Of a stretch of DNA of 32,000 nt, positions 5,786 to 32,000 are shown piece by piece. Below the pieces are notes generated by a model, which was given only the letters and a program-made list of their open reading frames with translations, did no database searches and was not told the origin of the DNA. The stretch's first letter is position 1; every line of letters begins with the position of its first letter. The position numbers and the translations under genes were made by a program. The stretch is from assembly GCF_027944005.1 (NCBI RefSeq), contig NZ_AP027204.1, positions 2,425,249-2,457,248 on the forward strand. Direction: 5' to 3'. Source of the stretch: Polynucleobacter sp. SHI8. GTDB taxonomy: Bacteria > Pseudomonadota > Gammaproteobacteria > Burkholderiales > Burkholderiaceae.

Positions 5786-6658
5786 ATGGCAGATAAAAAA
5801 AGTGATAAAAAAAGCACTAAAGATAGTAAGTTGACCGTTTTTAATTCGATGCGAGCCGCTGCTTGGGTAAATGATCTCAAGCGTAGAACTGAGGTTGAGA
5901 GTGATAAGGCGTTACTAAAAGCCATTCCAACCATCCAAGATTTGGAAGTTCGGTTTGGACGATACTTATCAGGTATCCATCTTCCCTCTGGAATGATTAG
6001 AAATGCTATTCATGCCTATGCGCCTGTAAAGAAATCACGCTTCGTCTTTGAATTCGGTCCTGAAGATCAAGGGGAGTTCGTATCGCTTTGGATGCTTTTT
6101 CAGGATCGCTATGACGAATTTTGGACGATCATTGAAGATGTCATTCCCCGATTGCCAACAGATCGGGAAGAAGGGCATTATGGACGGATTGATCGCATTG
6201 CAGCCATTTTCTGTGCAACTGATACTTGGGCGGATATTCGCGTTAAACGAGCCTATTCGTTTGAAATGAATAATCCAGTTCAAGTCTATATGAATGAATT
6301 TCAGGTGATGCCTGAATTGCGATTTTTGGCAGCAGTGATCGCTATTTGGCGATTGAGCATGTTAGTGCGGGAAGGGGAGGAAGCGACTGAATATTTGTTA
6401 CATTGCTTATTGACTGGTCCTTATGTGCAGGTTTTAGAAAAACATGGAATTTATGAACATGTTTGCTTTCTGGTTCACGCGTTCGCGGTAAGACATTACT
6501 TGATGCAGGGGCAGACGAGCCTTGCAGCGAAAATTTTTTCTGACATATATCAACCGACACAAAAACGCATGGAAATTCAAAAAAGTGAAAAAAGTAGCGA
6601 TCTACCAGACTCTACAAAGGCTGTTTTTTCGTTTTGGAATTCTTCGGTGCTAAAGTAG
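5786..6658 (+). CDS. Hypothetical protein
   Basis: 290-aa ORF with a Lys-rich N-terminus. It is transcribed divergently from the ParB-methylase gene. I recognised no motif. Confidence 0.55.
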   Translation: MADKKSDKKSTKDSKLTVFNSMRAAAWVNDLKRRTEVESDKALLKAIPTIQDLEVRFGRYLSGIHLPSGMIRNAIHAYAPVKKSRFVFEFGPEDQGEFVSLWMLFQDRYDEFWTIIEDVIPRLPTDREEGHYGRIDRIAAIFCATDTWADIRVKRAYSFEMNNPVQVYMNEFQVMPELRFLAAVIAIWRLSMLVREGEEATEYLLHCLLTGPYVQVLEKHGIYEHVCFLVHAFAVRHYLMQGQTSLAAKIFSDIYQPTQKRMEIQKSEKSSDLPDSTKAVFSFWNSSVLK

Positions 6659-9487: not shown

Positions 9488-9577
9488 TGGTATCACCTCA
9501 ATGTGAGGTGGAACACCTGTTTGGAGCACCTGATATTTTGAAGCTTATAAACTTCAATCAGATCAACAACTTAAAAT

Positions 9578-9847: not shown

Positions 9848-10894
9848 TTAAATTAGCGGTGGGAATGTATACCCATCAACTTTAAATACTTTTAAGCAAG
9901 CGTTAACGACATCAGTATCAAATAGCTTGTCACTACCCATAGCGATTTCTTCTAATGCGGCATCTATACCTTTACCTTTTCTGTAAGGGCGATCAGATGA
10001 CATTGCCTCTACTGTGTCTGCCACACCCAGAATACGAGCCTCCTCACAGACAATATCGCCTTTAATTGCGTTGGGGTAGCCACTGCCATCCAAACGCTCA
10101 TGATGCTGAAGAACTGCTTGAGCAATATTCCAAGGAAAGTGAATATGTTTGAGCATGTCATAGCCAGCTTGAACATGATTCCTAAGCATGGCGACCTCAA
10201 AGTTGCTTAGGGCGATGGGCTTTGTGAGAATTTCTGCGGGAATAGTAATTTTGCCAATATCGTGAACTAAGGCGGCCATACGAATACCTTCAATGGTATG
10301 TATGGGCAAATTCATTTCCGTGGCAATTGCCACAGCCAAATTTGCCACGCGCTTTTGATGTCCGCCCGTATATGGATCGCGAGCAACAATGACATTGGCT
10401 AAAGTGTCAACCATTTCGTTCATAGAAATGTTGACTGAGTGCTGATACTCGAGCAACTCCTTTTCTAGCTTTTTTCTATCTGAGATGTCGCGAATATTAC
10501 ATTGAATAACGCGGTCGCCATTGACGCCATAGGCATTGCTGATAAACTTTACATTAATAATCTCTTCATCTTTTCGTTTTAATGGGAGATCTTCATAGCG
10601 TATGTAGCCCTTGTCTTTGAGCACGGTAAAGGCTGTTAAAGCCGCGGCTTTATCTACCATCGCGCCAATTTCCCACAACTCTTTACCGATGAGCTCATCT
10701 CTTGTAAAGCCCAGTAGGTTAGTAATGAATGGATTAGCGTCTTGAATGACTCCCGTTTGAAAATCAAGTATCAAGATACCATCTTGAGCGGTCTCAAATA
10801 ATCGCCTATAGCGTAGCTCTGATTGTTTGGCTAACTGTTCTTTGTTTAAATCGTTTGTCATCAATATATTTGGTGAAATCAATAAATCCACCAT
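9848..10894 (-). CDS. PAS-domain HD-GYP c-di-GMP phosphodiesterase
   Basis: The N-terminal [16 protein letters not shown]...ANPF is PAS-like. The C-terminal half has HDIGK and [11 protein letters not shown] (HD-GYP signature). Confidence 0.8.
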
Positions 10895-10997: not shown

Positions 10998-11849
10998 TTG
11001 TACATAGCAATTAGCCTTTACAGCTTGTCTTTACTTTGCCAGGTTCTCGCATCATTAATTAGTCTTTCGTTATTTCGATATTCAGCAAAAGTATATCGTT
11101 TTCCTTGGCTTTTACTCGCTATAGGCTTGGCAATGATGATTGGGCGAAGAATGAATCCCATTCTTCATATATTCGAAACCGATCATTATGATTTAATAGA
11201 CGCCCTCTTATCTCTACTAATTTCTGGTTTTTTATTACTTGGAGTGCTTGGTCTTAGAAAATTACTCCTCAAGTCTGACGATAAACAACTGACACTTGAA
11301 ACTCTTGCTCAATTTGACCCCCTCACCAACAGCTTAAGTCGCACTGAAATTCTTTATCGAGCCTCTGAAGAAATTGATCGATCACGCAGAAATAAACATT
11401 CCTTTGCGCTTTTAGAAATGGACATTGACCATTTTAAAAATGTAAACGATCAGCTTGGTCATCATGTTGGCGATGAAGTCTTAATTAATTTTGTAAGACA
11501 CTCCCAAGAAGCCCTTCGCTCTATCGATTCAGTTGGACGAATTGGTGGAGAAGAATTTCTAATTCTTTTGCCAGAAACAGAAGCCGAGGGAGCCGCTCAA
11601 ATTGCCGAGCGTTTGCGTAAACATATTGCTAACGCAATAAATGATACGAGCGCCCCAATACCAGTAAAAATCACCATTAGTATTGGGGTGACGATTTTTG
11701 AGCCAAATGAAAACCCTAGAATTGCGCGTGGAATAGTGCTCAATGAACTCATGAATAAGGCTGACTTAGCAATGTATCAAGCTAAAAATGAAGGGCGAAA
11801 TCGTATTGCCTTTTGGAGCGCCTCTACCCCCCCCCTTAAGAGGGCATGA
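10998..11849 (+). CDS. Membrane-anchored GGDEF diguanylate cyclase
   Basis: The N-terminal ~95 aa are hydrophobic. The active site is RIGGEEFLILL (GGEEF). NEGRNR lies near the C-terminus. The TTG start is preceded by GAGGAA. Confidence 0.8.
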   Translation: MYIAISLYSLSLLCQVLASLISLSLFRYSAKVYRFPWLLLAIGLAMMIGRRMNPILHIFETDHYDLIDALLSLLISGFLLLGVLGLRKLLLKSDDKQLTLETLAQFDPLTNSLSRTEILYRASEEIDRSRRNKHSFALLEMDIDHFKNVNDQLGHHVGDEVLINFVRHSQEALRSIDSVGRIGGEEFLILLPETEAEGAAQIAERLRKHIANAINDTSAPIPVKITISIGVTIFEPNENPRIARGIVLNELMNKADLAMYQAKNEGRNRIAFWSASTPPLKRA

Positions 11850-11851: not shown

Positions 11852-12796
11852 TTAAAAAGGAATGATTAATTCTTCCATCACATAGCGATAAAAGTAATTG
11901 GGCCCTAAAAACCCAGCAGACTTGCCATAACCAGCACGAGTCGTAAAGTAATAGTCATTTGATGCTACCGGACTGGTTGCCGCGAACTCATAAAGTTGTG
12001 TAGTGGTACTTGGATCTTGATTGACTGTTTGCCGCCCAACACCTGCTGTGCCACTGAGCATCCACCCCGCCATTCTTTTTCTTGCCCCAAACGCAATCAT
12101 CGTTTCGTTATAGGTTGATGGGTTGAAATAGTTATTAGCAACATTGGTATTGGTATCCCTAAATTGGCGATAACGCAGTTGCGCCGTTAGCCCGTAGTCT
12201 GGCACTAGGTCGTAAATGAGCTTTGCCCTCACTATTGGCCTTGTATTAGTGTCAGAAAAATACATATTGGCACCCATCAATATCGCAGTTAAACGCTCAA
12301 GAACCTGTTGCTCAAGAACCACTCCTCCAAGCGTGTAATAGATTCCATTGTTTAAGGAGTTTTGCGTCTCCACTCTATCTCGATTAACAATCACTTCAGC
12401 TTTTGTAGAGTCTGTTACGCGAAATCCATAGTTACTATCAGTGGTAACTAATTGATGCCCATTCTCAGTGTTGTAACCAATATTGAGGTTATAGCCTAGA
12501 GCTGTTCGCGGATTAATTGCCTTTGTCATTAGTGTATATTGCTCACCTGTTGAGCTCCAGCCGCCTTGCGTAAAGTAATTGTGCTGATAGGTAATGCCTG
12601 TATATTTTTCACCATGCTCGTACAAAGGTAGGTAGCCTGCCTTGTATTTGTATGTAGAAAACCCTTCGCTATCGGAGCTGAAATACACATTCGGCACTGA
12701 AATAGCCTGCTTTGTTTGCTCTGTCTCTTCTTCGGCATTCGCATGAGAAGTAAACAGTATGGAGATCATTAGAAAAATCTGAACTATTCTTTTCAT
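11852..12796 (-). CDS. Outer-membrane beta-barrel protein, candidate exopolysaccharide porin
   Basis: The signal peptide is MKRIVQIFLMISILFTSHANA. The sequence is rich in alternating aromatic and polar residues. The C-terminus is ...LIIPF (terminal Phe). Its ATG at 12796 overlaps the TGA of the upstream GT2 gene (ATGA). Confidence 0.65.
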   Translation of the reverse strand: MKRIVQIFLMISILFTSHANAEEETEQTKQAISVPNVYFSSDSEGFSTYKYKAGYLPLYEHGEKYTGITYQHNYFTQGGWSSTGEQYTLMTKAINPRTALGYNLNIGYNTENGHQLVTTDSNYGFRVTDSTKAEVIVNRDRVETQNSLNNGIYYTLGGVVLEQQVLERLTAILMGANMYFSDTNTRPIVRAKLIYDLVPDYGLTAQLRYRQFRDTNTNVANNYFNPSTYNETMIAFGARKRMAGWMLSGTAGVGRQTVNQDPSTTTQLYEFAATSPVASNDYYFTTRAGYGKSAGFLGPNYFYRYVMEELIIPF

Positions 12797-14124
12797 TTCG
12801 TTCCCCAAGATTTACGAAGATTAAACAGCTCAGAAAAATATCCATAAACACAAGCGGGCTGAAGCACTAAGCCATAGGCAAAAACATAGGATAAGAAGCC
12901 CAACATATTTGCCCGGACCGTTAAATGCTTAGCATTAAACATCGCCTTGCCCTTTAAATACATTTGCCAATTGAGTAAAAAAGCCATCGGCAATAGTGAT
13001 AGCGTCATGGGGCTTGCTATCCAATAGATGCCAAAACAAGCCAGGATTAGTCCAGGGATAAATCCAAAAGTAAAAGCAATATCCATTAGTGGAAACAATG
13101 CATTCCACCAAATGTATAGTGTTGAATATCTTGGCTTAACAAGAATCGTGGGGTTGTCCTTAAAAGCTTCTATCAATCCCCGTGACCAACGCCTTCTTTG
13201 GTGTATGAATTTACTTAAAGTATTGGGGCAATCCGTAAAAGCCAAAGCATCCTCAGCATGTCCCACTCTATAGCCTGCTGACAAAATTCTCCAAGTCAGT
13301 ACGATATCTTCACCGACCATCTCTGGCCAACCGCCCAATTCCAAAACTGTTTTACGGTCATACAAAGAGAATGCGCCTTGGGCAACTAAAGTACCTTGAA
13401 ATAAAGACTGAATTCGCTTGATAGTCGCAATACCTAAAAAGTAATCCCACTCCTGCGCCTTGGTAACCCAGTTTTCTCTTGAGTTGCGAATGAGAATTTC
13501 TCCAGCAACTGCTTTGGTATTGATTGGATCGGAGAGGTATCGACCAACTAAGTGACGGACGCCATCTTTCAATATATAGCTATCAGCATCGATTGAAATA
13601 ATAATATCCGTCGTACATTTTGCCAAACCATGATTGAGAGCGGACGCTTTGCCACCGTTACGCCCTAAGTCAATGAGCTCTAAATTGGGATGAGCAAACT
13701 GTAATGCTTTAACAGAATCGACAGTCTTATCACTAGAGCCATCATTAATCACAATGATGCGAATATCTGCTGGGTAATCCTGTAGAAAAATTCCTGACAG
13801 AGTTGAAGCTATTGATGCCCCCTCGTTATAGGCGGCGATTAATATAGTGACCGGAGGGTAATGCTGATCAAGTATCACTTTTGGGCGGCGATCTAGTAGA
13901 AGAGCCATGGCCACAAAAGCATTCATATAGCCTGGAACAATAGCTACAAATGTAATGACGAAATAAGCGAGGAATGTTCCTATTTCATTGCTCAGGTCTG
14001 AATACCAGGGATGGGAATACCAAAAAGAAAATCCCATCCAACTTAAGGAAAATAGTAGTGAAACGATAAATTTTCCTTTTACTGAAAAATACAAAGGATT
14101 CCACCAAAATTTATAATTGTTCAT
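12793..14124 (-). CDS. Processive family-2 glycosyltransferase (PgaC/IcaA/cellulose-synthase-like polysaccharide synthase)
   Basis: Motifs are NDGSSDKT, SIDADS and QRRRWSRG (QxxRW), with flanking transmembrane segments. I prefer the ATG at 14124, preceded by GGGGAG, over the TTG at 14136. Confidence 0.8.
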   Translation of the reverse strand: MNNYKFWWNPLYFSVKGKFIVSLLFSLSWMGFSFWYSHPWYSDLSNEIGTFLAYFVITFVAIVPGYMNAFVAMALLLDRRPKVILDQHYPPVTILIAAYNEGASIASTLSGIFLQDYPADIRIIVINDGSSDKTVDSVKALQFAHPNLELIDLGRNGGKASALNHGLAKCTTDIIISIDADSYILKDGVRHLVGRYLSDPINTKAVAGEILIRNSRENWVTKAQEWDYFLGIATIKRIQSLFQGTLVAQGAFSLYDRKTVLELGGWPEMVGEDIVLTWRILSAGYRVGHAEDALAFTDCPNTLSKFIHQRRRWSRGLIEAFKDNPTILVKPRYSTLYIWWNALFPLMDIAFTFGFIPGLILACFGIYWIASPMTLSLLPMAFLLNWQMYLKGKAMFNAKHLTVRANMLGFLSYVFAYGLVLQPACVYGYFSELFNLRKSWGTK

Positions 14125-14147
14125 AATACTCCCCAATGGGATTGTTT

Positions 14148-17528: not shown

Positions 17529-17537
17529 ACAAGAATT

Positions 17538-20200: not shown

Positions 20201-20612
20201 CCAAAAGCCACAAAGATCTAATGATTTGAGCCAGATCTGCTCTCCTTTTATTAGGTTTCACTAAATAGTTATGACGACAAAGCAGAAGAACGCTTTGTAT
20301 GCCATCACTTATTACTACTGAAATGAGTTGCGACACTCGGTCAATATGTCGCCCAATATCAACTGGACATCGGTGTCGCAGGGACGGAAATTCTGAAGCA
20401 GTAGCAGAGACTTGTATTCACTATCCTTTACAGGACGCCATTAGCCTTGCTGACTAATATGAATCAAGTATATGAATTAGCACAAAGATCGTAGAACATA
20501 GTTTTACGGATCACGAGAAAGCCCTGCTTACACAGCAACTTTCAAACAAGACAAAGGTAGCCACTTATTGCTTTTGTCATTGTTGCGTTTCAAGCCGCAC
20601 GTAAAAGGAGAC

Positions 20613-21455: not shown

Positions 21456-21774
21456 TTTTCACCTCAAATTAAATTTGTTTAAGTAACTATAGCTAATTTT
21501 TATAACAACAGAATAGTTTTAAGCAGAAATCTTTCAAGCTCGCTGGCTTGGGTAGCTGAGCCAAAATTTAAAACGCTTGAAGGTTATTTTAAAAGGTCAT
21601 CAAAATATCGTGGCTAAAATGCCACGATAAATATAAGAGAAGTAGAGAACTCTTATATTTTTGCGTAACCCATTGATAAAAAAGCGATTCTTTTTACACC
21701 ATTTTCGGTTGCCCAAACCGAATCTAAGAAAACATACTGTAACTCTTTATTTAATACATTTTAGGGAGAAACAG

Positions 21775-22341
21775 ATGTCACAAGCTAGAGTTTTAAATCC
21801 ACAAGAACTTCGCAGAGTTTTAGATCACGTTGCTACACGCAGGCACTCAGCACGTAATCGCGCTATGTTGCTACTTACGCACTACGCGGGTATGCGAGTA
21901 GCTGAAGTAGCCGCGCTACGCATAAACGACGTTTTAAACAGCGACAGCACGATTAAGGGTGAAGTACGCTTGATGCCCGATCAAACCAAGGGCAAACACG
22001 CCCGTACTGTTTACTTAAATGAACGCATGCAAAAGGAGCTGGCGCAGTACATCAAAGTACTCAAAATTAAAGATCCAACAAAACCCTTGTTTTACACACA
22101 GAAGCAAGCAGGGTTTTCAGCCAACTCACTTACCCAGTACTTCTTTTATCTTTATCGTGCAGTTGGATTGGAAGGTGCCAGTAGCCATAGCGGTAGACGC
22201 ACATTCTTAACTGGGCTTGCCAATAAAGGCACAGCAATTCATATATTGAAGTCTCTTGCAGGACATAGAAACATCAGTACTACTGCAACTTATCTCTATA
22301 GCAGTCCAGATCAGCTTAAGGCCGCTGTTGAATTGATCTAA
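21775..22341 (+). CDS. Small tyrosine recombinase (catalytic domain only, about 189 aa)
   Basis: The ATG at 21775 is preceded by AGGGAGA. Catalytic residues are GMRVAEV (Arg), TKGKHARTV (Lys), HSGRRT (HxxR), GHRNISTTATYLY (His...Tyr). There is no N-terminal core-binding domain. The ORF-track TTG start at 21661 is unlikely. Confidence 0.75.
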   Translation: MSQARVLNPQELRRVLDHVATRRHSARNRAMLLLTHYAGMRVAEVAALRINDVLNSDSTIKGEVRLMPDQTKGKHARTVYLNERMQKELAQYIKVLKIKDPTKPLFYTQKQAGFSANSLTQYFFYLYRAVGLEGASSHSGRRTFLTGLANKGTAIHILKSLAGHRNISTTATYLYSSPDQLKAAVELI

Positions 22342-24410: not shown

Positions 24411-25130
24411 ATGGGCATTCCCCATTCATATTTGAAAGGAATACAAATGTTAACGAAAGGAAATAATCATGCGCCTCAAACGATTGATGACATCATCTTT
24501 GGAAACGATGAATCTAAATTGCGGATTGAAGATATTGTCTCGGGTGCCGACGCATTACCTCACTGCGGCAAATCAGCCATTCTTTTATACGGAGTCTTCG
24601 GAACAGGCAAAACAACGCTCGCTAAGATGCTACCTAACCACATTGAATACGGCAAAACCAAAGAAGAGTTAGTCTGGCCAGAAGAGTTCATTGCTTGTCA
24701 GCAAGGCTTTAATGGCCCTCAGGTTATGGCAAAGATTGATGCAATCTTGACTAAAAGCTCTTTTAACGTAAGTGGGCTTCACTACATCATTCTTGATGAG
24801 GTGGACAACTTAACTAAGCAGGCTCAGCAAAGTTTGAAGTCAGCATTGAATACGACTCGCGGCGTATTCATATTGACGACAAACAATGTATCGCTACTAG
24901 ATAAGGGCATGCTAGATCGTTGCGTCTTAGTTGAAATGAATGCGGCACATCCAAATGCTTACTTGGATATTGCCAAATCTATTGCTGATGAAGCTGGGGT
25001 CACCTTATCTAATGATGAGTTACTGACAACCATTCAAGCCGCCAATGGATCATTTAGAAACTTGTTTCATAACGTGGGGCGCTTGGCTAGGCGCAAAGGT
25101 CAACAGCCACCTCCTAATATAATTTATTAA
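24411..25130 (+). CDS. AAA+ ATPase, clamp-loader (RFC/DnaX)-like module
   Basis: QTIDDIIFGN is RFC-box-II-like. Walker A is GVFGTGKTT, Walker B is IILDEVD and sensor-1 is FILTTNN. An alternative start at 24447 is also preceded by GAAAGGA. Confidence 0.7.
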   Translation: MGIPHSYLKGIQMLTKGNNHAPQTIDDIIFGNDESKLRIEDIVSGADALPHCGKSAILLYGVFGTGKTTLAKMLPNHIEYGKTKEELVWPEEFIACQQGFNGPQVMAKIDAILTKSSFNVSGLHYIILDEVDNLTKQAQQSLKSALNTTRGVFILTTNNVSLLDKGMLDRCVLVEMNAAHPNAYLDIAKSIADEAGVTLSNDELLTTIQAANGSFRNLFHNVGRLARRKGQQPPPNIIY

Positions 25131-26401
25131 GCCAGCCTATCTGCCGCCATCGTTGCCGTCAATTTGCTGTAATGACGATCAATCATGGCGGCACTATTGC
25201 CCATCTGCTTAGACAGCGTATGAATATCAGTCTTATTCTCCAATAGCTCCAAAGTAGCGTAGGTATGTCTAAGTGAATAGAGTGTTCGCATCTGCCCATC
25301 GTGACTTAATCCCAAACCACTATCTCGCATCAATCGCTTAAAAGCACCGTCAATCCGCATGGGCTGATGACCGTTGGCAAATACGAAGATCAGCTCAGGG
25401 CAACGCGTCTCAAATAGTCGATCAAAGGGAATATCCCACACAGCCCGTTGTCTGCTGTGTAATCGTTTAAGCACATTAACTGCCTTGTGTTTAGCAATCA
25501 GCCAGCGGCCACCAGTCTTGCCATCCACCCATATACGAAGGTACTTCTTATCCCCTTGCGTGTGCCACTCAATATTGTTCCAGCAGATATTCAGTGCCTC
25601 AGTGCCATGCCGCATACCTGTGTATAAAAGCATCTCAATATAGTCACGCAGTAAGGGTCTAGTCTCATGCTCAATCTCTAGTCTGCCTTGCTTGATCCAT
25701 GGCTCCATAAACTCCAACAAGCGATCAATCTCTTCGCGAGTAAATGCTGGGCGGGTTTTACCTTTTTGCCCTCTTGCTGTTAGCTTGGGAATAGCTACTC
25801 GTTCACTGATCCAGCCTTTGCTAATGGCTACCAGCTGTAACTTGGTCCACGCACTGGCAAAGTTCATCAAGGTGCTGGCTCTGGGCACCTTGTTCATCTG
25901 CCTATTACGCCAAACCTCAAACTCATGCACGTCGGTATAAGTTATTTCTTCTAGTCTTTTGTCACCAAAGTAAGGTAGAAAGTATTTCTCAATACAGGTG
26001 ATGTAGCTACCGTACACACTCTTGCCTATACCCACATCCAAGTCCTGCCGCATTGAGTAGAGAGTGGCGTGTGCAATTTCTGCAAACGTGGGCGACTTTT
26101 GTGCAAGCCCCAGTCTTTGGCGAAATCTGGTTTCATCGTAAAGATCGCAAGCCATTCGTACTGCGTGTTCAATACTGGCTTGGCGGGTGGTCTGACGATG
26201 CCATGAGCCATCTTGCAGTCTAAAGCGACAATGCCAAAGTGGACTTCCGGGTCTGCGATGAATAACGACTTCGCCATCACGCAAGTAAAGCTCTGTGGGC
26301 TCGGCGTATTTGAGCTGGCTTAAGGCTGTGGGTTGGGATTCGTGCTGGGGCGAGGAGATTACTTCCAGATGACTTTCAGGTACTTTAATTACCTTGGTCA
26401 C
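25127..26401 (-). CDS. int: Tyrosine site-specific integrase
   Basis: Catalytic residues are YTGMRHGTEAL (Arg), LYSLRHTYAT (HxxR), GNSAAMIDRHYSK (Tyr). The GTG start is uncertain. The 3' end overlaps the ATPase gene by 4 nt (convergent). Confidence 0.85.
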   Translation of the reverse strand: MTKVIKVPESHLEVISSPQHESQPTALSQLKYAEPTELYLRDGEVVIHRRPGSPLWHCRFRLQDGSWHRQTTRQASIEHAVRMACDLYDETRFRQRLGLAQKSPTFAEIAHATLYSMRQDLDVGIGKSVYGSYITCIEKYFLPYFGDKRLEEITYTDVHEFEVWRNRQMNKVPRASTLMNFASAWTKLQLVAISKGWISERVAIPKLTARGQKGKTRPAFTREEIDRLLEFMEPWIKQGRLEIEHETRPLLRDYIEMLLYTGMRHGTEALNICWNNIEWHTQGDKKYLRIWVDGKTGGRWLIAKHKAVNVLKRLHSRQRAVWDIPFDRLFETRCPELIFVFANGHQPMRIDGAFKRLMRDSGLGLSHDGQMRTLYSLRHTYATLELLENKTDIHTLSKQMGNSAAMIDRHYSKLTATMAADRLA

Positions 26402-26472: not shown

Positions 26473-26476
26473 AAAT

Positions 26477-26491
26477 GTCCTTTTAAAGGAC
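26477..26491. repeat. REP-like palindrome
   Basis: GTCCTTTTAAAGGAC, 3 nt downstream of the last gene of the hxs-linked operon. Confidence 0.65.
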
Positions 26492-26757: not shown

Positions 26758-27987
26758 CTAAAAAGATAATGTCTTTAAGAAAGCAGTTAGTTGACTTACC
26801 TCTTCTGGGGTTAGATAGTTAACTCTAGTTGTGCTGTCGCTGAATGTAAGTCTTTTAGATAGCTCATATCTATCAAACTGACTTAGCTTGTCTGTTTGCA
26901 CCAAAGACAAAGGGTCATAGTGAGCAATAATTGCTTCTTGAATTGTTGCTACAGATCCAGAATGCCCATATGGCGCGGTCTTTTCTACGTTGTACAGTGG
27001 CGCAGTTCGAAATTTATATAAGTCTTTTGGATTAAATGTCGCGTTATATCTCCCGTAGTCAACTCCAAAACCATTCTTACCAAATCCAAGCTGTGGAAAC
27101 GGTACCGTATAAAACTTGAAATCGCTAAAGTGGGGTCCGTTGTGGCATGTAGAGCAGGCACCTTTGCCATAAAACACTCTGGCACCCTTCAATTCAGGCT
27201 GAGTAAGATCTTCTTTGCCTTGAACAAATCTCTCTAATTTTGTTTGCTTAAGTCTGAATTCGTTGCGAATAAAGGCCGCTATGGCCCTTGCAAAATCAAT
27301 GTACTCTAGCTGGTCAACATTTTTATTAAGTACTTTGGCTAAATTTTGACTTGCTTCTGGCTCAATTTTTATAAGTCTTTGAGATATTGCCTTGTACACT
27401 TCTTTGGATTTATCTACTGACTCGGTTTTGTGATTTTTGACAAACTGATCCTCATCAAGCATCTCTCTAATTTCCACAACCGGTAAATGTATTGCCGTTA
27501 CCAAAGCATCATTAGTAGGCCCCTGCGAACCAAATTGACTAAGCGGCTTTTTCAAAGAAAAGTCCACCCTACCATCCCAGAAAAATACATCAAAACCTTT
27601 GGCACCTCTGCCCCAAAAAGCCAAGGTATTTCTTGGTAGTTGCTTTGCTCCATTAAGCAATCTATCGGGCCCAACCATTGTCTTTCCATCGCCGCCCCCA
27701 ATAGCCGCCGCGTTGGGTATTCCGTCTGCAGAGCCAAATTTGTCTTGATGGCAGGTTCTGCATGAGATATTGCCATTAAGACTTAGCCCCTTATTGCTCT
27801 CAAAAAATTTAACCCCCAATGGTGATAATTTTTCATCGGAATTTCTATATAGCTCGTCTGCGGGCTTAAAGCCAGATTCAATTATTTGGCGCTTAATTAT
27901 TTTTGTTTCAGCATTTTCAATGGCGCTAACATGCTGAGTTAGCACCATCAATGAAAACAGGAGTATTTTATTAATAACGAATTTCAT
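26758..27987 (-). CDS. Di-haem cytochrome c peroxidase / MauG-family protein (periplasmic)
   Basis: The signal peptide is MKFVINKILLFSLMVLTQHVSA. There are two CxxCH haem motifs, CRTCH and CSTCH, at the spacing typical of the CCP/MauG family. Confidence 0.8.
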   Translation of the reverse strand: MKFVINKILLFSLMVLTQHVSAIENAETKIIKRQIIESGFKPADELYRNSDEKLSPLGVKFFESNKGLSLNGNISCRTCHQDKFGSADGIPNAAAIGGGDGKTMVGPDRLLNGAKQLPRNTLAFWGRGAKGFDVFFWDGRVDFSLKKPLSQFGSQGPTNDALVTAIHLPVVEIREMLDEDQFVKNHKTESVDKSKEVYKAISQRLIKIEPEASQNLAKVLNKNVDQLEYIDFARAIAAFIRNEFRLKQTKLERFVQGKEDLTQPELKGARVFYGKGACSTCHNGPHFSDFKFYTVPFPQLGFGKNGFGVDYGRYNATFNPKDLYKFRTAPLYNVEKTAPYGHSGSVATIQEAIIAHYDPLSLVQTDKLSQFDRYELSKRLTFSDSTTRVNYLTPEEVSQLTAFLKTLSF

Positions 27988-28354
27988 GAGTTTTTACAAA
28001 ATTTCTAACATCATTTGATTTTTCTTCAATTACCTCAATACCAATCATTGCAAGACTTTCTTCATTGACACCCAAAATCATCATCTTTTTTCTGAGCTTG
28101 TCATAGTCATCGCAAGTCAACAAACCTACCTCGGCGGAATGTAACTGCCTAATAGACTCTTCAGATTTATCAACATTCACTTTATTTTTTGCAATTAAGT
28201 GATCACGCATAACATTGTCGCAAGCAAATACTAACTTTTTATAGTCTTCCTTATAGATAACCTCAGCCAAATAAGGTGCGGCCATATATTTTGTAGCGAG
28301 CGCAATACAGCTTATAGAGGCAAATACATTCAGAACAATAAGTATTTTTTTCAT
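27971..28354 (-). CDS. Membrane-anchored hypothetical protein
   Basis: I prefer the start MKKILIVLNVFASISCIALA at 28354, one nt after the upstream TGA, over the ORF-track start at 28390. Its 3' end overlaps the peroxidase-like gene by 17 nt. Confidence 0.55.
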   Translation of the reverse strand: MKKILIVLNVFASISCIALATKYMAAPYLAEVIYKEDYKKLVFACDNVMRDHLIAKNKVNVDKSEESIRQLHSAEVGLLTCDDYDKLRKKMMILGVNEESLAMIGIEVIEEKSNDVRNFVKTHEIRY

Positions 28355-28355: not shown

Positions 28356-28763
28356 TCAACATCCCAAATTTCTTTTAGTCTGCTCATCAATTTGACCAGT
28401 CACCGGAATACTTTTACTCTCCTGAAATTTAATAATTGCCTCAATGTACTTGGCATTAAAAGAAGAATCTAAATCATCAATTGGGTAGCCCAAATCTTTT
28501 AACTTCACTAGGCATTTATCAGAATTAATACCACTTGCAATTTGCCTTTTCTTATTCTCCTGCGCCTCGGTAACTGCTGGCGTGGCAGGTAAAACAAAGG
28601 ATCTTGGTGTGCTTTGTTCATTTCTATCAACATCAACCTCATCTTCATCCTCGTAAACAAGGTGTTGCCTTGTATAAATTTTGTACGAAGAAGAAAGTCC
28701 AACAACTAGAAAAATAATAGTTAACACCGTTATGGCTGTTGTCGATTTCTTTGAAAGTTCCAT
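28356..28763 (-). CDS. Membrane-anchored protein with a C-terminal peptidoglycan-binding (PG_binding_1-like) domain
   Basis: The N-terminal transmembrane segment is AITVLTIIFLVVGL. The C-terminal LKDLGYPIDDLDSSFNAKYIEAIIKFQESKSIPVTGQIDEQTKRNLG fits the LGY...DG.F...T..A...FQ....L..TG..D..T pattern. The gene starts 2 nt after the hxsC stop. Confidence 0.65.
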   Translation of the reverse strand: MELSKKSTTAITVLTIIFLVVGLSSSYKIYTRQHLVYEDEDEVDVDRNEQSTPRSFVLPATPAVTEAQENKKRQIASGINSDKCLVKLKDLGYPIDDLDSSFNAKYIEAIIKFQESKSIPVTGQIDEQTKRNLGC

Positions 28764-28765: not shown

Positions 28766-29911
28766 TTATTCTTTAAATGCTCTGATGTGGTCGCTATACC
28801 TATACTTTTTTGAAGATGAAAAGAAGCCGCCACATTCACTTCTTTTTACACAGGAATCGCACTCTTCAACATATTCATTTTTCCAATCACTAATTGATTT
28901 AACGTAATTGGATTTAATATCTTGATTCACCACGCAGAGCTGATGGTTATAGATGGATGTTCTTATTCCGTATGAATTTAGAATTCCTAAAGCCCTACTT
29001 AATGTATCTTTGTACTCATATGGATCTATCCATAATTTATCTAAGTTTGCTCGTGTAAAGCCCATCATTTCCAAGCCCATCAATGCAACATGGTCAACAA
29101 AAATAAGATTTCTAGCAATGAACTCACATGTCTGCACTAAACGATCAATTGTTTGCTTATGGATTACTACCCTAATTTCTACCTTTTGATTGAATCTTTT
29201 TAAATTCAAAATGCCTTGCATGGTTTCATCAAATGCGCCATTGGCTTGAACCACATAATCATGTCTTGCAGGATCATCTGAATATATTGGAATGCCCAAA
29301 AGACAATCGTGGTGATTTACATCGGCATAACGCTTAGCAAATGAGCTATCTTTAAATGTTCTTCCGTTGGTTAAAACATCAATTGCGGTATTTGGTAGTG
29401 CCTTTTTTGTTTTTGTAATCAGCTCAATAAACTGGTCGCCATATAAGGTAGGTTCTCCACCTGTATATCCAATGTTCGCAGTGTCCTTTGGGATTAAATC
29501 AAGCGCCTCAATTGCCTCTTCCATTAGCCACGAGTCATCATGATCTTTTGGTGGTTGAGAGCACATCAAACAATAATGATTACATCGCTCGGTCAGTAAA
29601 AACGTATTGTTAGGGCTTTTCTTTCTAAATATGATGCCGATACGACCAGATGGTGAGATGCGGGCTATATCGCCCTCATCTATGTAGTTCATTTCCTCGG
29701 GTAGCTCTAGATGATTTACCTGACCCAAGTCTTTTGTAGCATCAAAAGTCAAATACGCCCCAAAGCCCTCGGGAGCCGAGCCATTTTCAATTATTAAAGC
29801 CTTATCTTGGCGCTCGCCGATTGGTATCTGAGAATTTTTAGTCAGCGTAAATAATCGACTCCTATCAAGAGTGAAATTTTCGACGACGCCTCGACCGTAT
29901 AACTTAAGCAT
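28766..29911 (-). CDS. hxsC: Radical SAM maturase, HxsC type (His-Xaa-Ser system)
   Basis: The CxxxCxxC motif is ERCNHYCLMCSQ. It is the second rSAM gene, overlapping hxsB by 8 nt. The operon order of precursor, HxsD, rSAM, rSAM matches the described Hxs system. Confidence 0.7.
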   Translation of the reverse strand: MLKLYGRGVVENFTLDRSRLFTLTKNSQIPIGERQDKALIIENGSAPEGFGAYLTFDATKDLGQVNHLELPEEMNYIDEGDIARISPSGRIGIIFRKKSPNNTFLLTERCNHYCLMCSQPPKDHDDSWLMEEAIEALDLIPKDTANIGYTGGEPTLYGDQFIELITKTKKALPNTAIDVLTNGRTFKDSSFAKRYADVNHHDCLLGIPIYSDDPARHDYVVQANGAFDETMQGILNLKRFNQKVEIRVVIHKQTIDRLVQTCEFIARNLIFVDHVALMGLEMMGFTRANLDKLWIDPYEYKDTLSRALGILNSYGIRTSIYNHQLCVVNQDIKSNYVKSISDWKNEYVEECDSCVKRSECGGFFSSSKKYRYSDHIRAFKE

Positions 29912-31361
29912 TTGGTTGAGCCCAATCGGTGAATAACTGTTTCACAAACGAGTCTTCTTCCATTCGTTTAATCAAATATTTGAAGATCTTCATGTTTCTA
30001 TTACAGAATTCAGAGTCTGGCTTTCTACCGACAAAGTCTTTGTATATGCCGTAGTGAAATACCGGATCGGCCCCGCAATAACTTTCAAATGCACAATCTG
30101 TACACATTGGTACGCTATATGCAAAGGATTCTTCTATTGGATCTAGTAAAGCATCGCTGAGAAATATTTGCTCATAGGTATCTTTTAAAACGTGCCCAAT
30201 TTGAAATTTATTCTCACCCATCTCAGCAAGCATTCTGCTCTCATCAGATGCAAACACTTTGCCATCGTAGTTATAGACTACTGCCCCAATTCCAATTCCT
30301 GCTGGGCTCATTAAGTCTACATAACCAGGCTCTGTGCTTGTAAGCATTTTGGAGAGAATGGTTGCCGCATAAAACTCTCTAAATTCTTTGCCTCTGCGGT
30401 TTAACTCAATGATGTACTCAAGACCTTCTACAAAAAATTCGTGCCATTTTTCTGCATCATAGGCGGCATATGTTTTTGTTTTAAGAGCAAAACCGTATGG
30501 TGACAAAGGTCTTAGAAAAATCCCTCCAAACTCTCTTTCAACATATTCATCAATAATTTCTTTAACTCTCCCAAGACTTGCTTTAGTTGTAGTCATGAGC
30601 GCAGAAACAGAATATTTTCCTAAATATCTTCTTGTGGATGCAATTCCCTCAATTGCTTTTTCATAACTATTGCTACCTTTGCGTGGTCTATTGTGGTTAT
30701 GAAGATCTTTAGGCCCATCTAGAGAAGTAGAAATTTGAATTTTGTGTTGTTTACAAAATTCCAATACCTGATCATTAATTAACGCTAAATTTGTTGCTAT
30801 AACGTAGCCAATATTCTTGGTGCCCCTGAGACTTTCTGCACGCTCAACAATATATTTTATGAGAGGAAAATTTAATAACGGCTCGCCACCTTGAAATTCA
30901 ATTTTGATGTTTTGAGCCGGTGCCTTCAAAGCTAAGTCCAACGACTTATCTGCAACCTCTTTGGACATATCAAATGCTACTTTATCGTCCGAAGCTCTTG
31001 AAACCTGACAATACGGGCAACTATGCTCACATCGTAAAGAAACTACAAATATATGTAAGCCAGTGAATTCACTAAGGTTGCTATATTTCGTTCTTAACTT
31101 GATTGCCAATAAATCTTTAGCAATGCTTGTTTTGTCATCCACTAAAAAGTGTCTTGCTCTTAAATTGATATAGTCTGGATCTGATGAGGTTAATTGGTGT
31201 TTAACCAATTTCGATAACTTATCACGCGGAAGAGTCAGATACTCTCCAGCCATATTAGTAACTACATAGCTCTGATCATCTAGAGCCTCAAACCTAAGTG
31301 GAAGAAGCTCATAAGAATGAGTTTTGTTTTTATAGAATTCTATCGGCTGAAACTTACTCAT
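29904..31361 (-). CDS. hxsB: Radical SAM/SPASM maturase, HxsB type (His-Xaa-Ser system)
   Basis: The CxxxCxxC motif is LRCEHSCPYCQ. The C-terminal Cys-rich SPASM-like region is PMCTDCAFESYCGADP...FCNRN. Confidence 0.75.
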   Translation of the reverse strand: MSKFQPIEFYKNKTHSYELLPLRFEALDDQSYVVTNMAGEYLTLPRDKLSKLVKHQLTSSDPDYINLRARHFLVDDKTSIAKDLLAIKLRTKYSNLSEFTGLHIFVVSLRCEHSCPYCQVSRASDDKVAFDMSKEVADKSLDLALKAPAQNIKIEFQGGEPLLNFPLIKYIVERAESLRGTKNIGYVIATNLALINDQVLEFCKQHKIQISTSLDGPKDLHNHNRPRKGSNSYEKAIEGIASTRRYLGKYSVSALMTTTKASLGRVKEIIDEYVEREFGGIFLRPLSPYGFALKTKTYAAYDAEKWHEFFVEGLEYIIELNRRGKEFREFYAATILSKMLTSTEPGYVDLMSPAGIGIGAVVYNYDGKVFASDESRMLAEMGENKFQIGHVLKDTYEQIFLSDALLDPIEESFAYSVPMCTDCAFESYCGADPVFHYGIYKDFVGRKPDSEFCNRNMKIFKYLIKRMEEDSFVKQLFTDWAQPNA

Positions 31362-31653
31362 CCTTTATCAGCCCTGCCTTCGAGAAGGTGTGGGCAAGAA
31401 TGAGGTTTCTTACGCCTTCAGTTTCTCTCTTGATTGATTCCCGAAGATCTTGATCTAATACTTCTTTTTTAAATTCATCGACAAGTCTTGCCGCTTGAGC
31501 ATCAGTTGATTTATCTGGGAACTTTATGAAACATGAATATGAAGTCCCGTTTTCTGAAATTACCGCCGAAAACTTATCGATAAATCTATAAGCGGCTTTT
31601 TTAATTGCTTCTGCAGAATAAATTGCTTTATCAAAGAAAACTTGCAATTCCAT
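31354..31653 (-). CDS. hxsD: His-Xaa-Ser system protein HxsD
   Basis: 99 aa. VLDQDLRE matches the LLNDYxLRE signature that names the HxsD family. The gene overlaps hxsB by 8 nt. Confidence 0.65.
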   Translation of the reverse strand: MELQVFFDKAIYSAEAIKKAAYRFIDKFSAVISENGTSYSCFIKFPDKSTDAQAARLVDEFKKEVLDQDLRESIKRETEGVRNLILAHTFSKAGLIKDE

Positions 31654-31697
31654 TAGATTGCCCCATGGTCTTTAAATGCCCCAGAGGGCCAATCCAA

Positions 31698-32000
31698 TTA
31701 AATGGTTTCTGTTCTTGGGTCTTCTGAGTGACCAGAACGATGTGAACGATGGGAGGAATGAGAGGAATGAGAGTAGTGATCTGCGAAAATAACCCCAGAT
31801 TCGCTCTTTTTCATCAATAAACGATGCATTTCATCATTCTTTTGATAATCCACAACATGGGTAGTAACCCCATCTAGCTTGTTCACAGCCTTTAAATCAT
31901 CAGAAGCTGATTTTTGATCTTGTTTCTCAGTTACAGGAGCAGAAATAGCATTTGCGTGTGAGCTAAACAATGATGCTGTTGCAACACCCACAGGAATCAG
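31698..32000 (-). CDS. hxsA: His-Xaa-Ser repeat precursor protein HxsA (N-terminus outside the window)
   Basis: The C-terminus is HYS-HSS-HSS-HRS-HRS-G-HS followed by EDPRTETI. The reading frame stays open to position 32000 (...LIPVGVATASLFSSHANA|ISAP), which looks like a Sec signal peptide with an A-x-A cleavage site. Confidence 0.75.
   Translation of the reverse strand: MIPVGVATASLFSSHANAISAPVTEKQDQKSASDDLKAVNKLDGVTTHVVDYQKNDEMHRLLMKKSESGVIFADHYSHSSHSSHRSHRSGHSEDPRTETI

What the first reader, a model, noticed from the sequence alone, without database searches (positions are those of the whole stretch)
28766..32000. His-Xaa-Ser (Hxs) radical-SAM peptide-maturation cluster: hxsA-hxsD-hxsB-hxsC
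A precursor ends in tandem His-Xaa-Ser triplets (HYSHSSHSSHRSHRSGHS). It is followed by a small protein with the HxsD signature (VLDQDLRE) and by two radical SAM enzymes (CEHSCPYC with a SPASM-like Cys cluster, and CNHYCLMC). Overlapping stop/start codons link hxsD, hxsB and hxsC; hxsA precedes hxsD after a 44-nt gap. As far as I know this system has been defined only by comparative genomics (NCBIfam/TIGRFAMs HxsA-D; from memory, accessions in the TIGR03976-TIGR03979 range, to be verified). No chemistry, product or physiological role has been demonstrated. The precursor tail has no Cys, so the two rSAM enzymes cannot be doing sactipeptide- or ranthipeptide-type thioether chemistry. Whatever they do to His or Ser would be new chemistry.
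Basis: partly seen in the sequence, partly recalled or inferred. Interest (0 to 1): 0.85.

Follow-up and report, generated by a model that had tools for sequence, protein, structure and literature searches.

The report
Seven-gene HXS anti-phage operon variant
This is a real His-Xaa-Ser (HXS) radical-SAM operon on a Polynucleobacter genomic island, a kind of system shown in 2026 to block phage DNA entry in E. coli, here in a rarer, already catalogued but untested seven-gene form that separates the repeat peptide from its cell-wall anchor and adds a di-haem enzyme pair.

Summary
On the minus strand, four tightly coupled genes score above NCBIfam's curated cut-offs: HxsA2 (not HxsA), HxsD, HxsB and HxsC. 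Five tandem HxS triplets occur once in the window and never in 200 shuffles.

- The operon has seven genes, not four. It continues to 26758 with a membrane-anchored peptidoglycan-binding protein, a TIGR03982-family protein and a "MauG-like" di-haem protein. The same order holds in eight independent loci.
- The claim that no role is known is outdated. Li et al. (Nat Commun 2026) showed that E. coli HXS blocks phage DNA entry and that HxsA carries a +8 Da modification. The structure of that modification is still unsolved.
- The locus is Polynucleobacter sp. SHI8/SHI2, and RefSeq already names the genes.

This variant differs from the studied system. HxsB is 30% identical. The gene order is A2-D-B-C rather than D-B-C-A. 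The repeat peptide and the wall-binding domain are separate proteins. The di-haem protein has an invariant His where MauG has Tyr.

Most likely it is an island-borne envelope defence system. It is a new member of a known kind, of moderate interest.

The parts
31698..32000 (-). hxsA2: His-Xaa-Ser repeat precursor. Full length is 105 aa; the first 5 codons lie beyond the window end, so the gene would span 31698..32015. Layout: N-terminal Sec-type signal peptide, variable spacer, conserved pre-repeat motif, C-terminal HxS repeats.
   Evidence: NF038296 HxsA2 71.3 bits vs cut-off 48. Full-length P0065, named 'His-Xaa-Ser repeat protein'. Family alignment A1. N-terminal hydrophobic segment, KD15 1.64.
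31734..31778 (-). Five tandem HxS triplets (HYS HSS HSS HRS HRS), followed by GHSEDPRTETI. This is the presumed core modified by HxsB/HxsC.
   Evidence: Six-frame regex scan: unique in the window, and 0 of 200 shuffles gave 3 or more tandem triplets. The repeats plus the preceding motif align to residues 39-74 of Klebsiella HxsA (hhalign prob 92%, E 6e-7).
31654..31697 (-). 44-nt hxsA2-hxsD spacer. A possible hairpin overlaps the hxsD start codon. Support is weak.
   Evidence: MFE -21 kcal/mol, z = -1.72, 14 of 200 shuffles fold as well. Not significant.
31354..31653 (-). hxsD: small cytoplasmic partner protein. In E. coli it forms a complex with HxsC.
   Evidence: TIGR03976 73.5 bits vs 50. 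VLDQDLRE motif conserved across loci. HxsC-HxsD pull-down reported in PMC13128918.
29904..31361 (-). hxsB: radical SAM maturase with a C-terminal SPASM-like Cys cluster.
   Evidence: TIGR03978 599.4 bits vs 370. C111/C115/C118 and C420/C423/C429/C453 are invariant in 9 of 9 sequences including Klebsiella. 30% identity to Klebsiella HxsB.
28766..29911 (-). hxsC: second radical SAM maturase.
   Evidence: TIGR03977 412.6 bits vs 267.9. C110/C114/C117 and C326/C351/C354/C360 are invariant in 8 of 8 sequences.
28356..28763 (-). PGB: 135-aa protein. Layout: N-terminal membrane anchor, acidic run (net -7 over residues 36-50), invariant linker motif RNE-STPRSF-LP-TP-V, C-terminal PG_binding_1 domain with two invariant Cys. 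It occupies the position that hxsA holds in the E. coli-type operon.
   Evidence: Pfam PG_binding_1 30.5 bits vs 23. Invariant motif in 29 of 29 homologs. Hydropathy and charge. AF2 model places the motif in a non-helical, low-confidence linker. Found in the same position in 8 other loci.
27971..28354 (-). TIGR03982-family His-Xaa-Ser system protein, 127 aa from the ATG at 28354. Membrane-anchored and all-helical, with two invariant Cys. No structural relative found.
   Evidence: TIGR03982 106.1 bits vs 40. RefSeq 127-aa form. AF2 pLDDT 87.9. Foldseek against PDB, best E 0.95. Only 67 representative clusters among 1.84 billion.
26758..27987 (-). His-Xaa-Ser system-associated 'MauG-like' di-haem cytochrome c peroxidase-family protein. 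It has a signal peptide and two CXXCH motifs (CRTCH 76-80, CSTCH 278-282). An invariant His356 sits at the position of the sixth haem ligand.
   Evidence: TIGR03981 342 bits vs 340, a marginal pass; TIGR03791 MauG only 49.9 vs 443.85. Pfam CCP_MauG. His356 aligns with Tyr of 6E1C and with Met of peroxidase 3O5C. The His is invariant in 7 of 7 family members.
26473..26491 (.). Palindrome ATGTCCTTTTAAAGGAC, 267 nt downstream of the last operon gene. It is one of eight copies in the island and may be a terminator or an operator.
   Evidence: the repeat finder families D2-D4. Also scored as terminator-like on the + strand.
25127..26401 (-). Tyrosine recombinase/integrase directly downstream. This is island context, not part of the system.
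   Evidence: NCBIfam recombinase hit. 668-member cluster named 'integrase' in Polynucleobacter.

Best explanation
The region is a single seven-gene operon (hxsA2-hxsD-hxsB-hxsC-PGB-TIGR03982-diheme, 32015..26758, minus strand). It encodes the HxsA2 subtype of the His-Xaa-Ser system and is carried on an integrase-rich island of Polynucleobacter sp. SHI8/SHI2.

Proposed mechanism, by analogy with E. coli HXS:
1. In the cytoplasm, the two radical SAM enzymes HxsB and HxsC, with HxsD bound to HxsC, recognise the conserved pre-repeat motif of the 105-aa HxsA2 precursor. They install a covalent modification in its C-terminal HxS repeats, most likely at the last conserved S-H-R-S repeat.
2. HxsA2 is exported through its N-terminal signal peptide.
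3. In the periplasm it works with a separately encoded, inner-membrane-anchored peptidoglycan-binding protein. That protein supplies in trans the wall tether that is fused to HxsA in E. coli.
4. A membrane-anchored helical protein (TIGR03982) and a di-haem peroxidase-family enzyme act as a two-gene periplasmic module that adds an oxidative or redox step.
5. The assembled envelope effector interferes with entry of foreign (phage) DNA.

Shown here: gene identities, operon structure, conserved synteny, catalytic Cys and haem motifs, envelope versus cytoplasmic topology, island context.

Shown elsewhere, for the 30%-identical E. coli system only: anti-phage function, periplasmic effector, +8 Da modification, HxsC-HxsD complex.

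Inferred: everything about function in this variant, the in-trans anchoring, and the role of the di-haem/TIGR03982 pair.
For: Identity: four core proteins and two accessory proteins pass curated NCBIfam cut-offs. The identical sequences are named this way in RefSeq.

Single operon: junctions are 8-nt overlap, 8-nt overlap, 2-nt gap, 1-nt gap and 17-nt overlap. There is no excess of internal promoters or terminators.

Conserved seven-gene order: found in L001, L006-L009 and L011-L013, although HxsA2 identity falls to 30-50% and PGB identity to 33-39%.

Homology to the characterised effector: the HxsA2 profile aligns with HxsA residues 39-74 (prob 92%). Both HxsA and PGB hit Pfam PG_binding_1 above threshold. 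PGB sits where hxsA sits in the D-B-C-A operon.

Catalytic residues: these are invariant even when compared with Klebsiella.

Topology: hydrophobic N-termini occur only on HxsA2, PGB, TIGR03982 and the di-haem protein.

Two-gene module: the TIGR03982 and di-haem genes are duplicated together in L001 and L011.

Mobile or defence-island context: integrases in the window; integrase/AlpA/primase, R-M, ArdcN and AAA_25 genes beside other loci.

Function of the kind: PMC13128918.
Against: - No experiment exists for this subtype.
- Its HxsB, HxsC and HxsD are only 30%, 33% and 22% identical to the Klebsiella/E. coli-type proteins.
- The gene order differs from the 99.6% D-B-C-A pattern.
- The mature HxsA2 here is near neutral (net -2, pI 6.5; the tail has net 0 plus 6 His). 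This fits the proposed electrostatic DNA-binding model less well.
- PGB and the HxsA C-terminus are not significantly similar pairwise. 'Split effector' is therefore a domain-content and position argument, not demonstrated orthology.
- A four-gene A2-type locus without the trio exists (Mesorhizobium).
- PADLOC 2023 has no model for the system, and no known defence system flanks it in this window.
- No relative was found on viral contigs.
Confidence: 0.6

Rival explanations
1. Metal-handling peptide system. The His-rich, rSAM-modified HxsA2 is a periplasmic metal-binding peptide (Cu, Ni or Zn). The MbnH/MauG-family di-haem enzyme matures it or a partner protein, as MbnH does for MbnP in copper homeostasis.
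For: The tail has 6 His in 18 residues. The second-best NCBIfam hit of the di-haem protein is 'MbnH family di-heme enzyme' (E 1e-22). The best PDB sequence match is the MauG-family 'di-heme enzyme' 6E1C. The precursor is near neutral rather than polycationic.
Against: No metal transporter, TonB receptor, regulator or MbnP-like gene lies in any of the nine loci. The context is consistently a mobile island. A peptidoglycan-binding partner is not expected for a metallophore. The homologous E. coli system has a demonstrated anti-phage phenotype.
Confidence: 0.12
2. Classical RiPP natural product. HxsA2 is a leader-core precursor. Its modified C-terminal HxS core is released and acts as a diffusible antimicrobial or signalling peptide.
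For: HxsB is related to SPASM peptide maturases such as PapB, CcpM, SCIFF and QhpD. The conserved motif immediately N-terminal to the repeats looks like a recognition sequence. A precursor gene placed first, followed by a possible hairpin, is typical of RiPP clusters (weak).
Against: No leader peptidase, ABC exporter or immunity gene is present in any locus. The N-terminus is a Sec-type signal peptide, not a RiPP leader. Four of the seven products are envelope proteins, including a wall anchor. In E. coli the product is a ~170-aa periplasmic protein, not a released peptide.
Confidence: 0.1
3. Entry exclusion or envelope function serving the mobile element itself. The system would block competing conjugative DNA or other elements, or remodel the wall during transfer, rather than defend against phage.
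For: All loci sit next to integrases, AlpA, primase/AAA_25 or ArdcN genes of integrative elements or on conjugative plasmids. The window holds three tRNA-fragment att-like repeats and three recombinases. The E. coli authors say effects on plasmids and other mobile elements are untested.
Against: There is no direct evidence. The E. coli system restricts 110 of 113 phages. 77% of E. coli operons lie outside predicted prophages. This rival is close to the best explanation, since both block entry of foreign DNA.
Confidence: 0.1

Closest known systems
E. coli/Klebsiella HXS anti-phage system, hxsD-hxsB-hxsC-hxsA (Li et al., Nat Commun 2026;17:3910, PMC13128918)
   Same: - Two paired radical SAM enzymes with the same invariant CX3CX2C and four C-terminal Cys each.
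- An HxsD partner.
- A signal-peptide-bearing protein with about five tandem HxS repeats, preceded by a homologous E-H-x-L...A-[GD]-H motif and ending in S-H-R-S.
- A PG_binding_1 domain encoded in the operon.
- Carriage on mobile DNA.
   Different: - Only 30%, 33% and 22% identity for HxsB, HxsC and HxsD.
- The precursor gene is first (A2-D-B-C), not last.
- The repeats lie at the extreme C-terminus of a 105-aa protein with no S-rich linker and no PG-binding domain.
- The PG-binding domain is on a separate membrane-anchored protein with its own invariant motif.
- Two extra genes are present (TIGR03982 and a di-haem enzyme).
- The mature precursor is near neutral.
- The function is untested.
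NCBIfam/TIGRFAMs comparative-genomics definition of the His-Xaa-Ser system (Haft & Basu 2011, as cited in PMC9062424; models TIGR03976-03978, TIGR03981, TIGR03982, NF038296 HxsA2)
   Same: This locus is exactly what those models were built to recognise. Six of the seven proteins pass their cut-offs, and RefSeq already applies the names.
   Different: There is nothing structural. The PG-binding protein has no dedicated Hxs model and is named only generically. The models carry no functional information.
MauG / BthA (and MbnH) di-haem enzymes of the bCCP_MauG superfamily
   Same: Periplasmic, two CXXCH c-type haems, CCP_MauG fold. Encoded next to a presumed protein or peptide substrate, so a role in post-translational oxidation is plausible.
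   Different: The sixth ligand of the six-coordinate haem is Tyr in MauG/BthA and Met in peroxidases (PMC6405878). This family has an invariant His at the aligned position. The MauG Y294H and BthA Y463H mutants lose the bis-Fe(IV) state. MauG-type long-range radical chemistry should therefore not be assumed here.
SPASM/twitch radical SAM peptide maturases (PapB, SCIFF maturase, anSME, QhpD/PeaB)
   Same: HxsB shares the rSAM core and a C-terminal CX2CX5C...C cluster. It gives partial hits to these families (E 1e-31 to 1e-13).
   Different: All those hits fall far below the family cut-offs. The substrate core has no Cys, so thioether chemistry is excluded. Two paralogous rSAM enzymes are both required in E. 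coli.

Membership tests
HxsA2 (NCBIfam NF038296) | Whole-protein score at or above the curated cut-off of 48 bits | tested here: met
   71.3 bits, E 1e-19, even with 5 N-terminal residues missing.
HxsA2 (NCBIfam NF038296) | Small (~95-105 aa) protein with an N-terminal signal peptide and tandem His-Xaa-Ser repeats at the C-terminus, encoded next to hxsD/B/C | tested here: met
   Alignment A1 of 17 members. Five tandem HxS triplets. Adjacent to hxsD. The signal peptide is inferred from sequence and hydropathy only.
HxsA proper (TIGR03979; E. coli-type effector) | Match to the HxsA model, and fusion of the HxS repeats to a C-terminal peptidoglycan-binding domain in one ~210-aa protein | tested here: not met
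   No TIGR03979 hit at E<=0.01. HxsA2 has no PG-binding domain. Only the repeat region aligns with HxsA 39-74.
HxsD (TIGR03976) | Score at or above 50 bits; LL(N/D)xxLRE-type motif | tested here: met
   73.5 bits. VLDQDLRE is present and conserved.
HxsB (TIGR03978) | Score at or above 370 bits; CX3CX2C rSAM motif plus a C-terminal Cys cluster | tested here: met
   599.4 bits over the full model. C111/115/118 and C420/423/429/453 are invariant in 9 of 9 sequences.
HxsC (TIGR03977) | Score at or above 267.9 bits; CX3CX2C rSAM motif; gene adjacent to hxsB | tested here: met
   412.6 bits. C110/114/117 and C326/351/354/360 are invariant in 8 of 8 sequences. 8-nt overlap with hxsB.
TIGR03982 family His-Xaa-Ser system protein | Score at or above 40 bits; encoded within an Hxs cluster | tested here: met
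   106.1 bits. Same position in 8 other loci.
TIGR03981 His-Xaa-Ser system-associated MauG-like protein | Score at or above 340 bits; two CXXCH haem motifs; Hxs neighbourhood | tested here: met
   342 bits, a marginal pass. CRTCH and CSTCH are invariant. RefSeq applies this name.
MauG sensu stricto (TIGR03791; TTQ biosynthesis) | Score at or above 443.85 bits; Tyr-His ligation of the six-coordinate haem (Tyr294) | tested here: not met
   49.9 bits. The aligned ligand position holds an invariant His356, not Tyr. The importance of the ligand comes from PMC6405878. This rests on alignment only, not on a structure.
HXS anti-phage defence system (Li et al. 2026) | [quoted passage not shown] | tested here: not met
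   Homologues of D, B and C are present. The order here is A2-D-B-C plus three more genes.
HXS anti-phage defence system (Li et al. 2026) | Terminal S-H-R-S-S motif that carries the +8 Da modification | tested here: inconclusive
   The window has ...SHRSHRSGHS, and the family consensus ends in SHRSG[R/Y]. S-H-R-S is conserved but the fifth residue is Gly. The modification itself cannot be tested in silico.
HXS anti-phage defence system (Li et al. 2026) | Protection against phage by blocking DNA entry; periplasmic processed effector | not testable with these tools
   Requires phage challenge and cell fractionation. PADLOC-DB 2023 holds no HXS model, giving only weak pVip cross-hits of the rSAM cores.

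The most novel reading that the evidence does not exclude
The seven-gene HxsA2-type operon is a mechanistically distinct HXS subtype in which the effector is assembled in trans in the periplasm. After cytoplasmic rSAM modification and export, the di-haem (predicted bis-His) enzyme and its TIGR03982 partner oxidatively couple or dock the modified HxS tail onto the invariant RNE-STPRSF-LP-TP-V linker motif of the inner-membrane-anchored peptidoglycan-binding protein. This builds a membrane-to-wall tether at the site where foreign DNA crosses. It would be a two-compartment (radical SAM, then haem) maturation pathway for a defence protein.
Probability: 0.15. Interest if true: 0.7.

Novelty: new member of a known kind. 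Interest (0 to 1): 0.4.

Why it matters
HXS is the first defence system reported to act at phage DNA entry, and the first with an rSAM-modified protein effector. Its chemistry is unsolved, partly because E. coli HxsA is insoluble and could not be reconstituted.

The HxsA2 subtype offers a small, 82-residue mature substrate with the repeats at its very C-terminus. That may make it more tractable for solving the +8 Da chemistry.

The subtype also shows that the repeat module and the wall anchor can be separated. It adds a conserved haem-enzyme module that published work does not mention. The paper's HxsA-based census (>99.8% four-gene systems) therefore probably under-counts the diversity of HXS.

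For genome annotation the locus is routine, because PGAP already names it.

Tried and rejected
- Pairwise BLASTP of Klebsiella HxsA against the PGB protein and against HxsA2 gave no significant alignment. The profile comparison of PGB with the HxsA C-terminus aligned in register but was not significant (E 0.057, prob 1%). I therefore claim only shared Pfam domain and shared position, not orthology.
- The AF2 model of the TIGR03982 protein was confident, but Foldseek against PDB found nothing (best E 0.95). No function could be inferred.
- The AF2 model of PGB was only moderate (pLDDT 70) and was not searched.
- I first recalled 6E1C as BthA. The BthA paper does not contain that code, and a search for '6E1C' found nothing. 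I cite it only by its deposited name, 'Di-heme enzyme'.
- The Haft & Basu 2011 paper could not be fetched under the PMC id I remembered.
- The genome-contig scan did not return the source genome. The origin came from the exact-sequence look-up instead.
- A cluster look-up of accessory homologues gave no organism names.
- The viral-contig scan found no relatives.
- PADLOC gave no hits for the neighbouring genes.
- The 392-aa ORF upstream of hxsA2 in L010 and the 392-aa ORF at 6612..7790 are unrelated.
- The A2-D intergenic hairpin is not statistically supported.

Full report
**1. Observation**

The ORF list and sequence show four co-directional genes on the minus strand.
- A repeat protein at 31698..32000, ending ...ADHYSHSSHSSHRSHRSGHSEDPRTETI.
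- A 99-aa protein at 31354..31653, containing KKEVLDQDLRE.
- A 485-aa radical SAM protein at 29904..31361, with CEHSCPYC.
- A 381-aa radical SAM protein at 28766..29911, with CNHYCLMC.

The five tandem HxS triplets (31734..31778) are the only run of three or more in any frame of the window. No such run arose in 200 shuffled windows.

Against NCBIfam, all four proteins exceed the curated cut-offs:
- HxsA2 NF038296: 71.3 vs 48
- HxsD TIGR03976: 73.5 vs 50
- HxsB TIGR03978: 599.4 vs 370
- HxsC TIGR03977: 412.6 vs 267.9

The precursor matches HxsA2, not HxsA; there is no TIGR03979 hit. The window edge removes only its first five residues. The full protein (P0065) is 105 aa, MKKKFLIPVGVATASLFSSHANA|ISAP....

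**2. The operon is larger than reported**

Three more genes follow hxsC with a 2-nt gap, a 1-nt gap and a 17-nt overlap.
- A 135-aa protein with a Pfam PG_binding_1 domain (28356..28763; 30.5 bits vs 23).
- A TIGR03982-family 'His-Xaa-Ser system protein' (27971..28354; 106 bits vs 40).
- A TIGR03981 'His-Xaa-Ser system-associated MauG-like protein' (26758..27987; 342 bits vs 340, a marginal pass).

No excess of internal promoter-like or terminator-like sites lies on the coding strand. A 356-nt gap then separates the operon from a tyrosine recombinase gene.

**3. Origin and prior annotation**

Exact-sequence look-up identifies the proteins as those of Polynucleobacter sp. SHI8/SHI2 (BDW12334-12339, WP_281970424-429; 2.49-Mb genome). 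RefSeq already names them as follows:
- HxsD
- HxsB
- HxsC
- peptidoglycan-binding domain-containing protein
- TIGR03982 family His-Xaa-Ser system protein
- His-Xaa-Ser system-associated MauG-like protein

An Rfam 'Polynucleobacter-1' sRNA at 20325..20469 agrees with this origin.

**4. What is known about the kind**

A full-text search found one experimental study (PMC13128918, Nat Commun 2026). It reports the following for E. coli hxsD-hxsB-hxsC-hxsA.
- The system restricts 110 of 113 coliphages without abortive infection or loss of adsorption.
- T7 escape mutants map to the ejectosome proteins gp15 and gp16, and phage DNA entry is blocked.
- All four genes and the rSAM active sites are required.
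- HxsA (214 aa) has a signal peptide, five HxS repeats near residues 48-78, and a C-terminal peptidoglycan-binding domain. It is N-terminally processed and periplasmic.
- HxsA carries a +8.0 Da ('+C/-4H-type') modification within the last repeat, SHRSS.
- HxsC binds HxsD.
- Periplasmic HxsA binds DNA.

The authors could not reconstitute the chemistry. They state that 99.6% of systems have the order D-B-C-A and that more than 99.8% have four proteins. The paper never mentions HxsA2, MauG or haem. No held paper mentions HxsA2, TIGR03981 or TIGR03982. The statement that the chemistry is new remains open.

**5. How this locus differs from the studied system**

The window's HxsB is 30% identical to the Klebsiella/E. 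coli-type HxsB, HxsC is 33% identical and HxsD 22%. It groups instead with proteins that are 55-76% identical, from freshwater MAGs, a Mesorhizobium plasmid and Pseudomonas avellanae.

I fetched neighbourhoods of divergent HxsA2 and PGB homologues and scored them by phmmer with the seven window proteins. All seven genes occur in the same order in eight independent loci: L001, L006, L007, L008, L009, L011, L012 and L013. This holds even where PGB identity falls to 33-39% and HxsA2 identity to 30-50%. Every locus encodes a precursor ending in three to six HxS repeats followed by S-G-[R/Y/N]. A Mesorhizobium plasmid has only A2-D-B-C. The trio is therefore characteristic of one clade, not of every A2 system.

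The families are small:
- HxsA2: 24 clusters
- PGB: 54 clusters
- TIGR03982: 62 clusters at 90% identity, and only 67 representative clusters at 50% identity among 1.84 billion proteins

**6. Anatomy of the parts**

*HxsA2.* It has a signal peptide, a variable ~30-aa spacer, a conserved motif Y-KG-E-H-L-MKKS-SG---A-H, and then the repeats. A profile comparison aligns this motif plus the repeats with residues 39-74 of Klebsiella HxsA (EHDLVIAPLNTEVPFYIAGHRSHSSHRSHSSHRSSS). Probability is 92% and E is 6e-7. The score is helped by the repeats themselves.

*PGB.* It has an N-terminal hydrophobic anchor (KD15 2.64) and an acidic run (net -7 over 15 residues). An invariant motif R-N-E-x-S-T-P-R-S-F-x-L-P-x-T-P-x-V is present in 29 of 29 homologues and is more conserved than the domain itself. 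A C-terminal PG_binding_1 domain with two invariant Cys completes the protein. In the AF2 model the motif lies in a non-helical, low-confidence linker, which suits a docking or processing motif.

Canonical HxsA also hits PG_binding_1 (25.5 bits), and hxsA occupies the slot after hxsC. The A2-type therefore looks like HxsA split into a repeat peptide and a wall anchor. Pairwise similarity between PGB and the HxsA C-terminus is not significant, so this is an argument from domain content and position only.

*HxsB and HxsC.* Each keeps CX3CX2C plus four invariant C-terminal Cys (CX2CX5C and one more), even when compared with Klebsiella. This implies one auxiliary cluster each; that step is an inference.

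*TIGR03982.* The model is confident (pLDDT 88). It is a long N-terminal helix plus a four-helix bundle with two invariant Cys. It has no structural relative in PDB.

*The di-haem protein.* It has a signal peptide and two invariant CXXCH motifs. HMMER alignments place an invariant His356 (EAIIAH[Y/F/T]DPL) at the position of the Tyr of the MauG-family entry 6E1C (DIYSEGG). The same His aligns with the Met of peroxidase 3O5C (EAVNTMAD). MauG and BthA use Tyr-His ligation, peroxidases use Met-His, and Tyr-to-His mutants lose the bis-Fe(IV) state (PMC6405878). The 'MauG-like' name should therefore not be read as MauG-like chemistry. A bis-His six-coordinate haem is predicted, from alignment only.

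*The two-gene module.* The TIGR03982 and di-haem genes are duplicated together, as a diverged second pair, in L001 and L011. This marks them as a functional pair.

**7. Topology and context**

Only HxsA2, PGB, TIGR03982 and the di-haem protein have hydrophobic N-termini. The system thus has three cytoplasmic maturation proteins and four envelope proteins.

The window is island-like. It holds three recombinase genes (7874..9529, 21661..22341, 25127..26401). It has three direct copies of a tRNA-3'-half-like sequence but no intact tRNA. Many of its ORFs have no family match. Other loci lie beside integrase/AlpA/primase modules, an R-M pair, ArdcN, or AAA_25 genes. A Legionella preprint also places HxsC/B/D on a strain-specific accessory island. 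This fits a mobile defence cargo. However, PADLOC 2023 finds no known system nearby, and no relative lies on IMG/VR contigs.

**8. Mechanism and rivals**

Best-supported reading (confidence about 0.6): this is an HXS-type envelope defence system. HxsB, HxsC and HxsD modify the C-terminal repeats of HxsA2 in the cytoplasm. HxsA2 is exported. The separately encoded, membrane-anchored PG-binding protein provides the wall tether. The TIGR03982/di-haem pair adds a periplasmic redox or oxidative step.

One caution applies. The mature HxsA2 here is near neutral (net -2, pI 6.5, 8 His). The simple polycation-binds-DNA model proposed for E. coli fits less well. His protonation, the modification itself, or the acidic PGB linker may matter.

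Three rivals are less likely, for the reasons given in their entries:
- a metal-binding peptide system, with MbnH-like hits and a His-rich tail but no transport or regulatory genes;
- a released RiPP, with no protease or exporter and a Sec signal peptide;
- an entry-exclusion function serving the mobile element.

**9. Verdict**

The locus is a new member of a known, database-catalogued kind. Its subtype differs in architecture from the only characterised HXS system and has never been tested.

Interest is moderate (0.4). This is not a discovery of a new system. It is a potentially more tractable substrate for the unsolved +8 Da chemistry, and a pointer to an unstudied haem-dependent branch of HXS.

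Noticed in passing
window 9574-9630, 14467-14544, 17484-17590: Three direct copies of a 50-78-nt sequence. Its reverse complement is the 3' half of a tRNA (T-arm GGTTCGATTCC, acceptor stem, CCA), yet ARAGORN finds no intact tRNA in the window. One copy abuts the integrase at 7874..9529. These look like att-type remnants of several elements integrated in tandem at one tRNA gene.
   Followed up: partly
window 14191, 15077, 17429, 17802, 19667, 22723, 23654, 26473 (19-nt each); variant at 9816, 14148, 17386: Eight intergenic copies of the palindrome (A)TGTCCTTT(T/A)AAAGGAC(A), plus three copies of the variant TGTCGTTTAAAACGACA. One copy lies between the Hxs operon and the downstream integrase. 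They may be terminator hairpins, a REP-like element, or the operator of an island regulator.
   Followed up: no
window 20325-20469 (+): Rfam RF01718 'Polynucleobacter-1' sRNA motif, 83.4 bits against a gathering score of 37, inside the island.
   Followed up: no
L001 508..2284 and L011 11126..12900: A second, highly diverged TIGR03982-like plus MauG-like gene pair (18-32% identity to the first pair) sits next to the seven-gene operon in two unrelated loci. The second di-haem protein also shows a weak RoxA-like cytochrome c hit.
   Followed up: partly
window 23610-25130 (+): A 260-aa protein with no family match, followed by a 239-aa AAA+ ATPase (RFC/clamp-loader-like, with weak PADLOC TRIP13/IetA hits), sits between two recombinase genes. 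This may be an uncharacterised island or defence module.
   Followed up: no
window 9848-14136: c-di-GMP signalling and exopolysaccharide genes. They comprise a PAS/HD-GYP-type phosphodiesterase (9848..10894), a GGDEF diguanylate cyclase (10998..11849) and a PgaC/IcaA-like glycosyltransferase (12793..14136). All lie between att-like repeats.
   Followed up: no
L013 2535..3710: hxsC is split into two ORFs (159 + 225 aa) in this metagenomic locus. This is either a frameshifted pseudogene or an assembly error.
   Followed up: no
L001 and L002 (record titles): The closest HxsB relatives (73-76% identity) are on contigs binned as Flavobacteriales and Methylophilaceae MAGs, although the window is Polynucleobacter (Burkholderiales). 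This reflects either horizontal transfer among freshwater bacteria or mis-binning of short island contigs.
   Followed up: no
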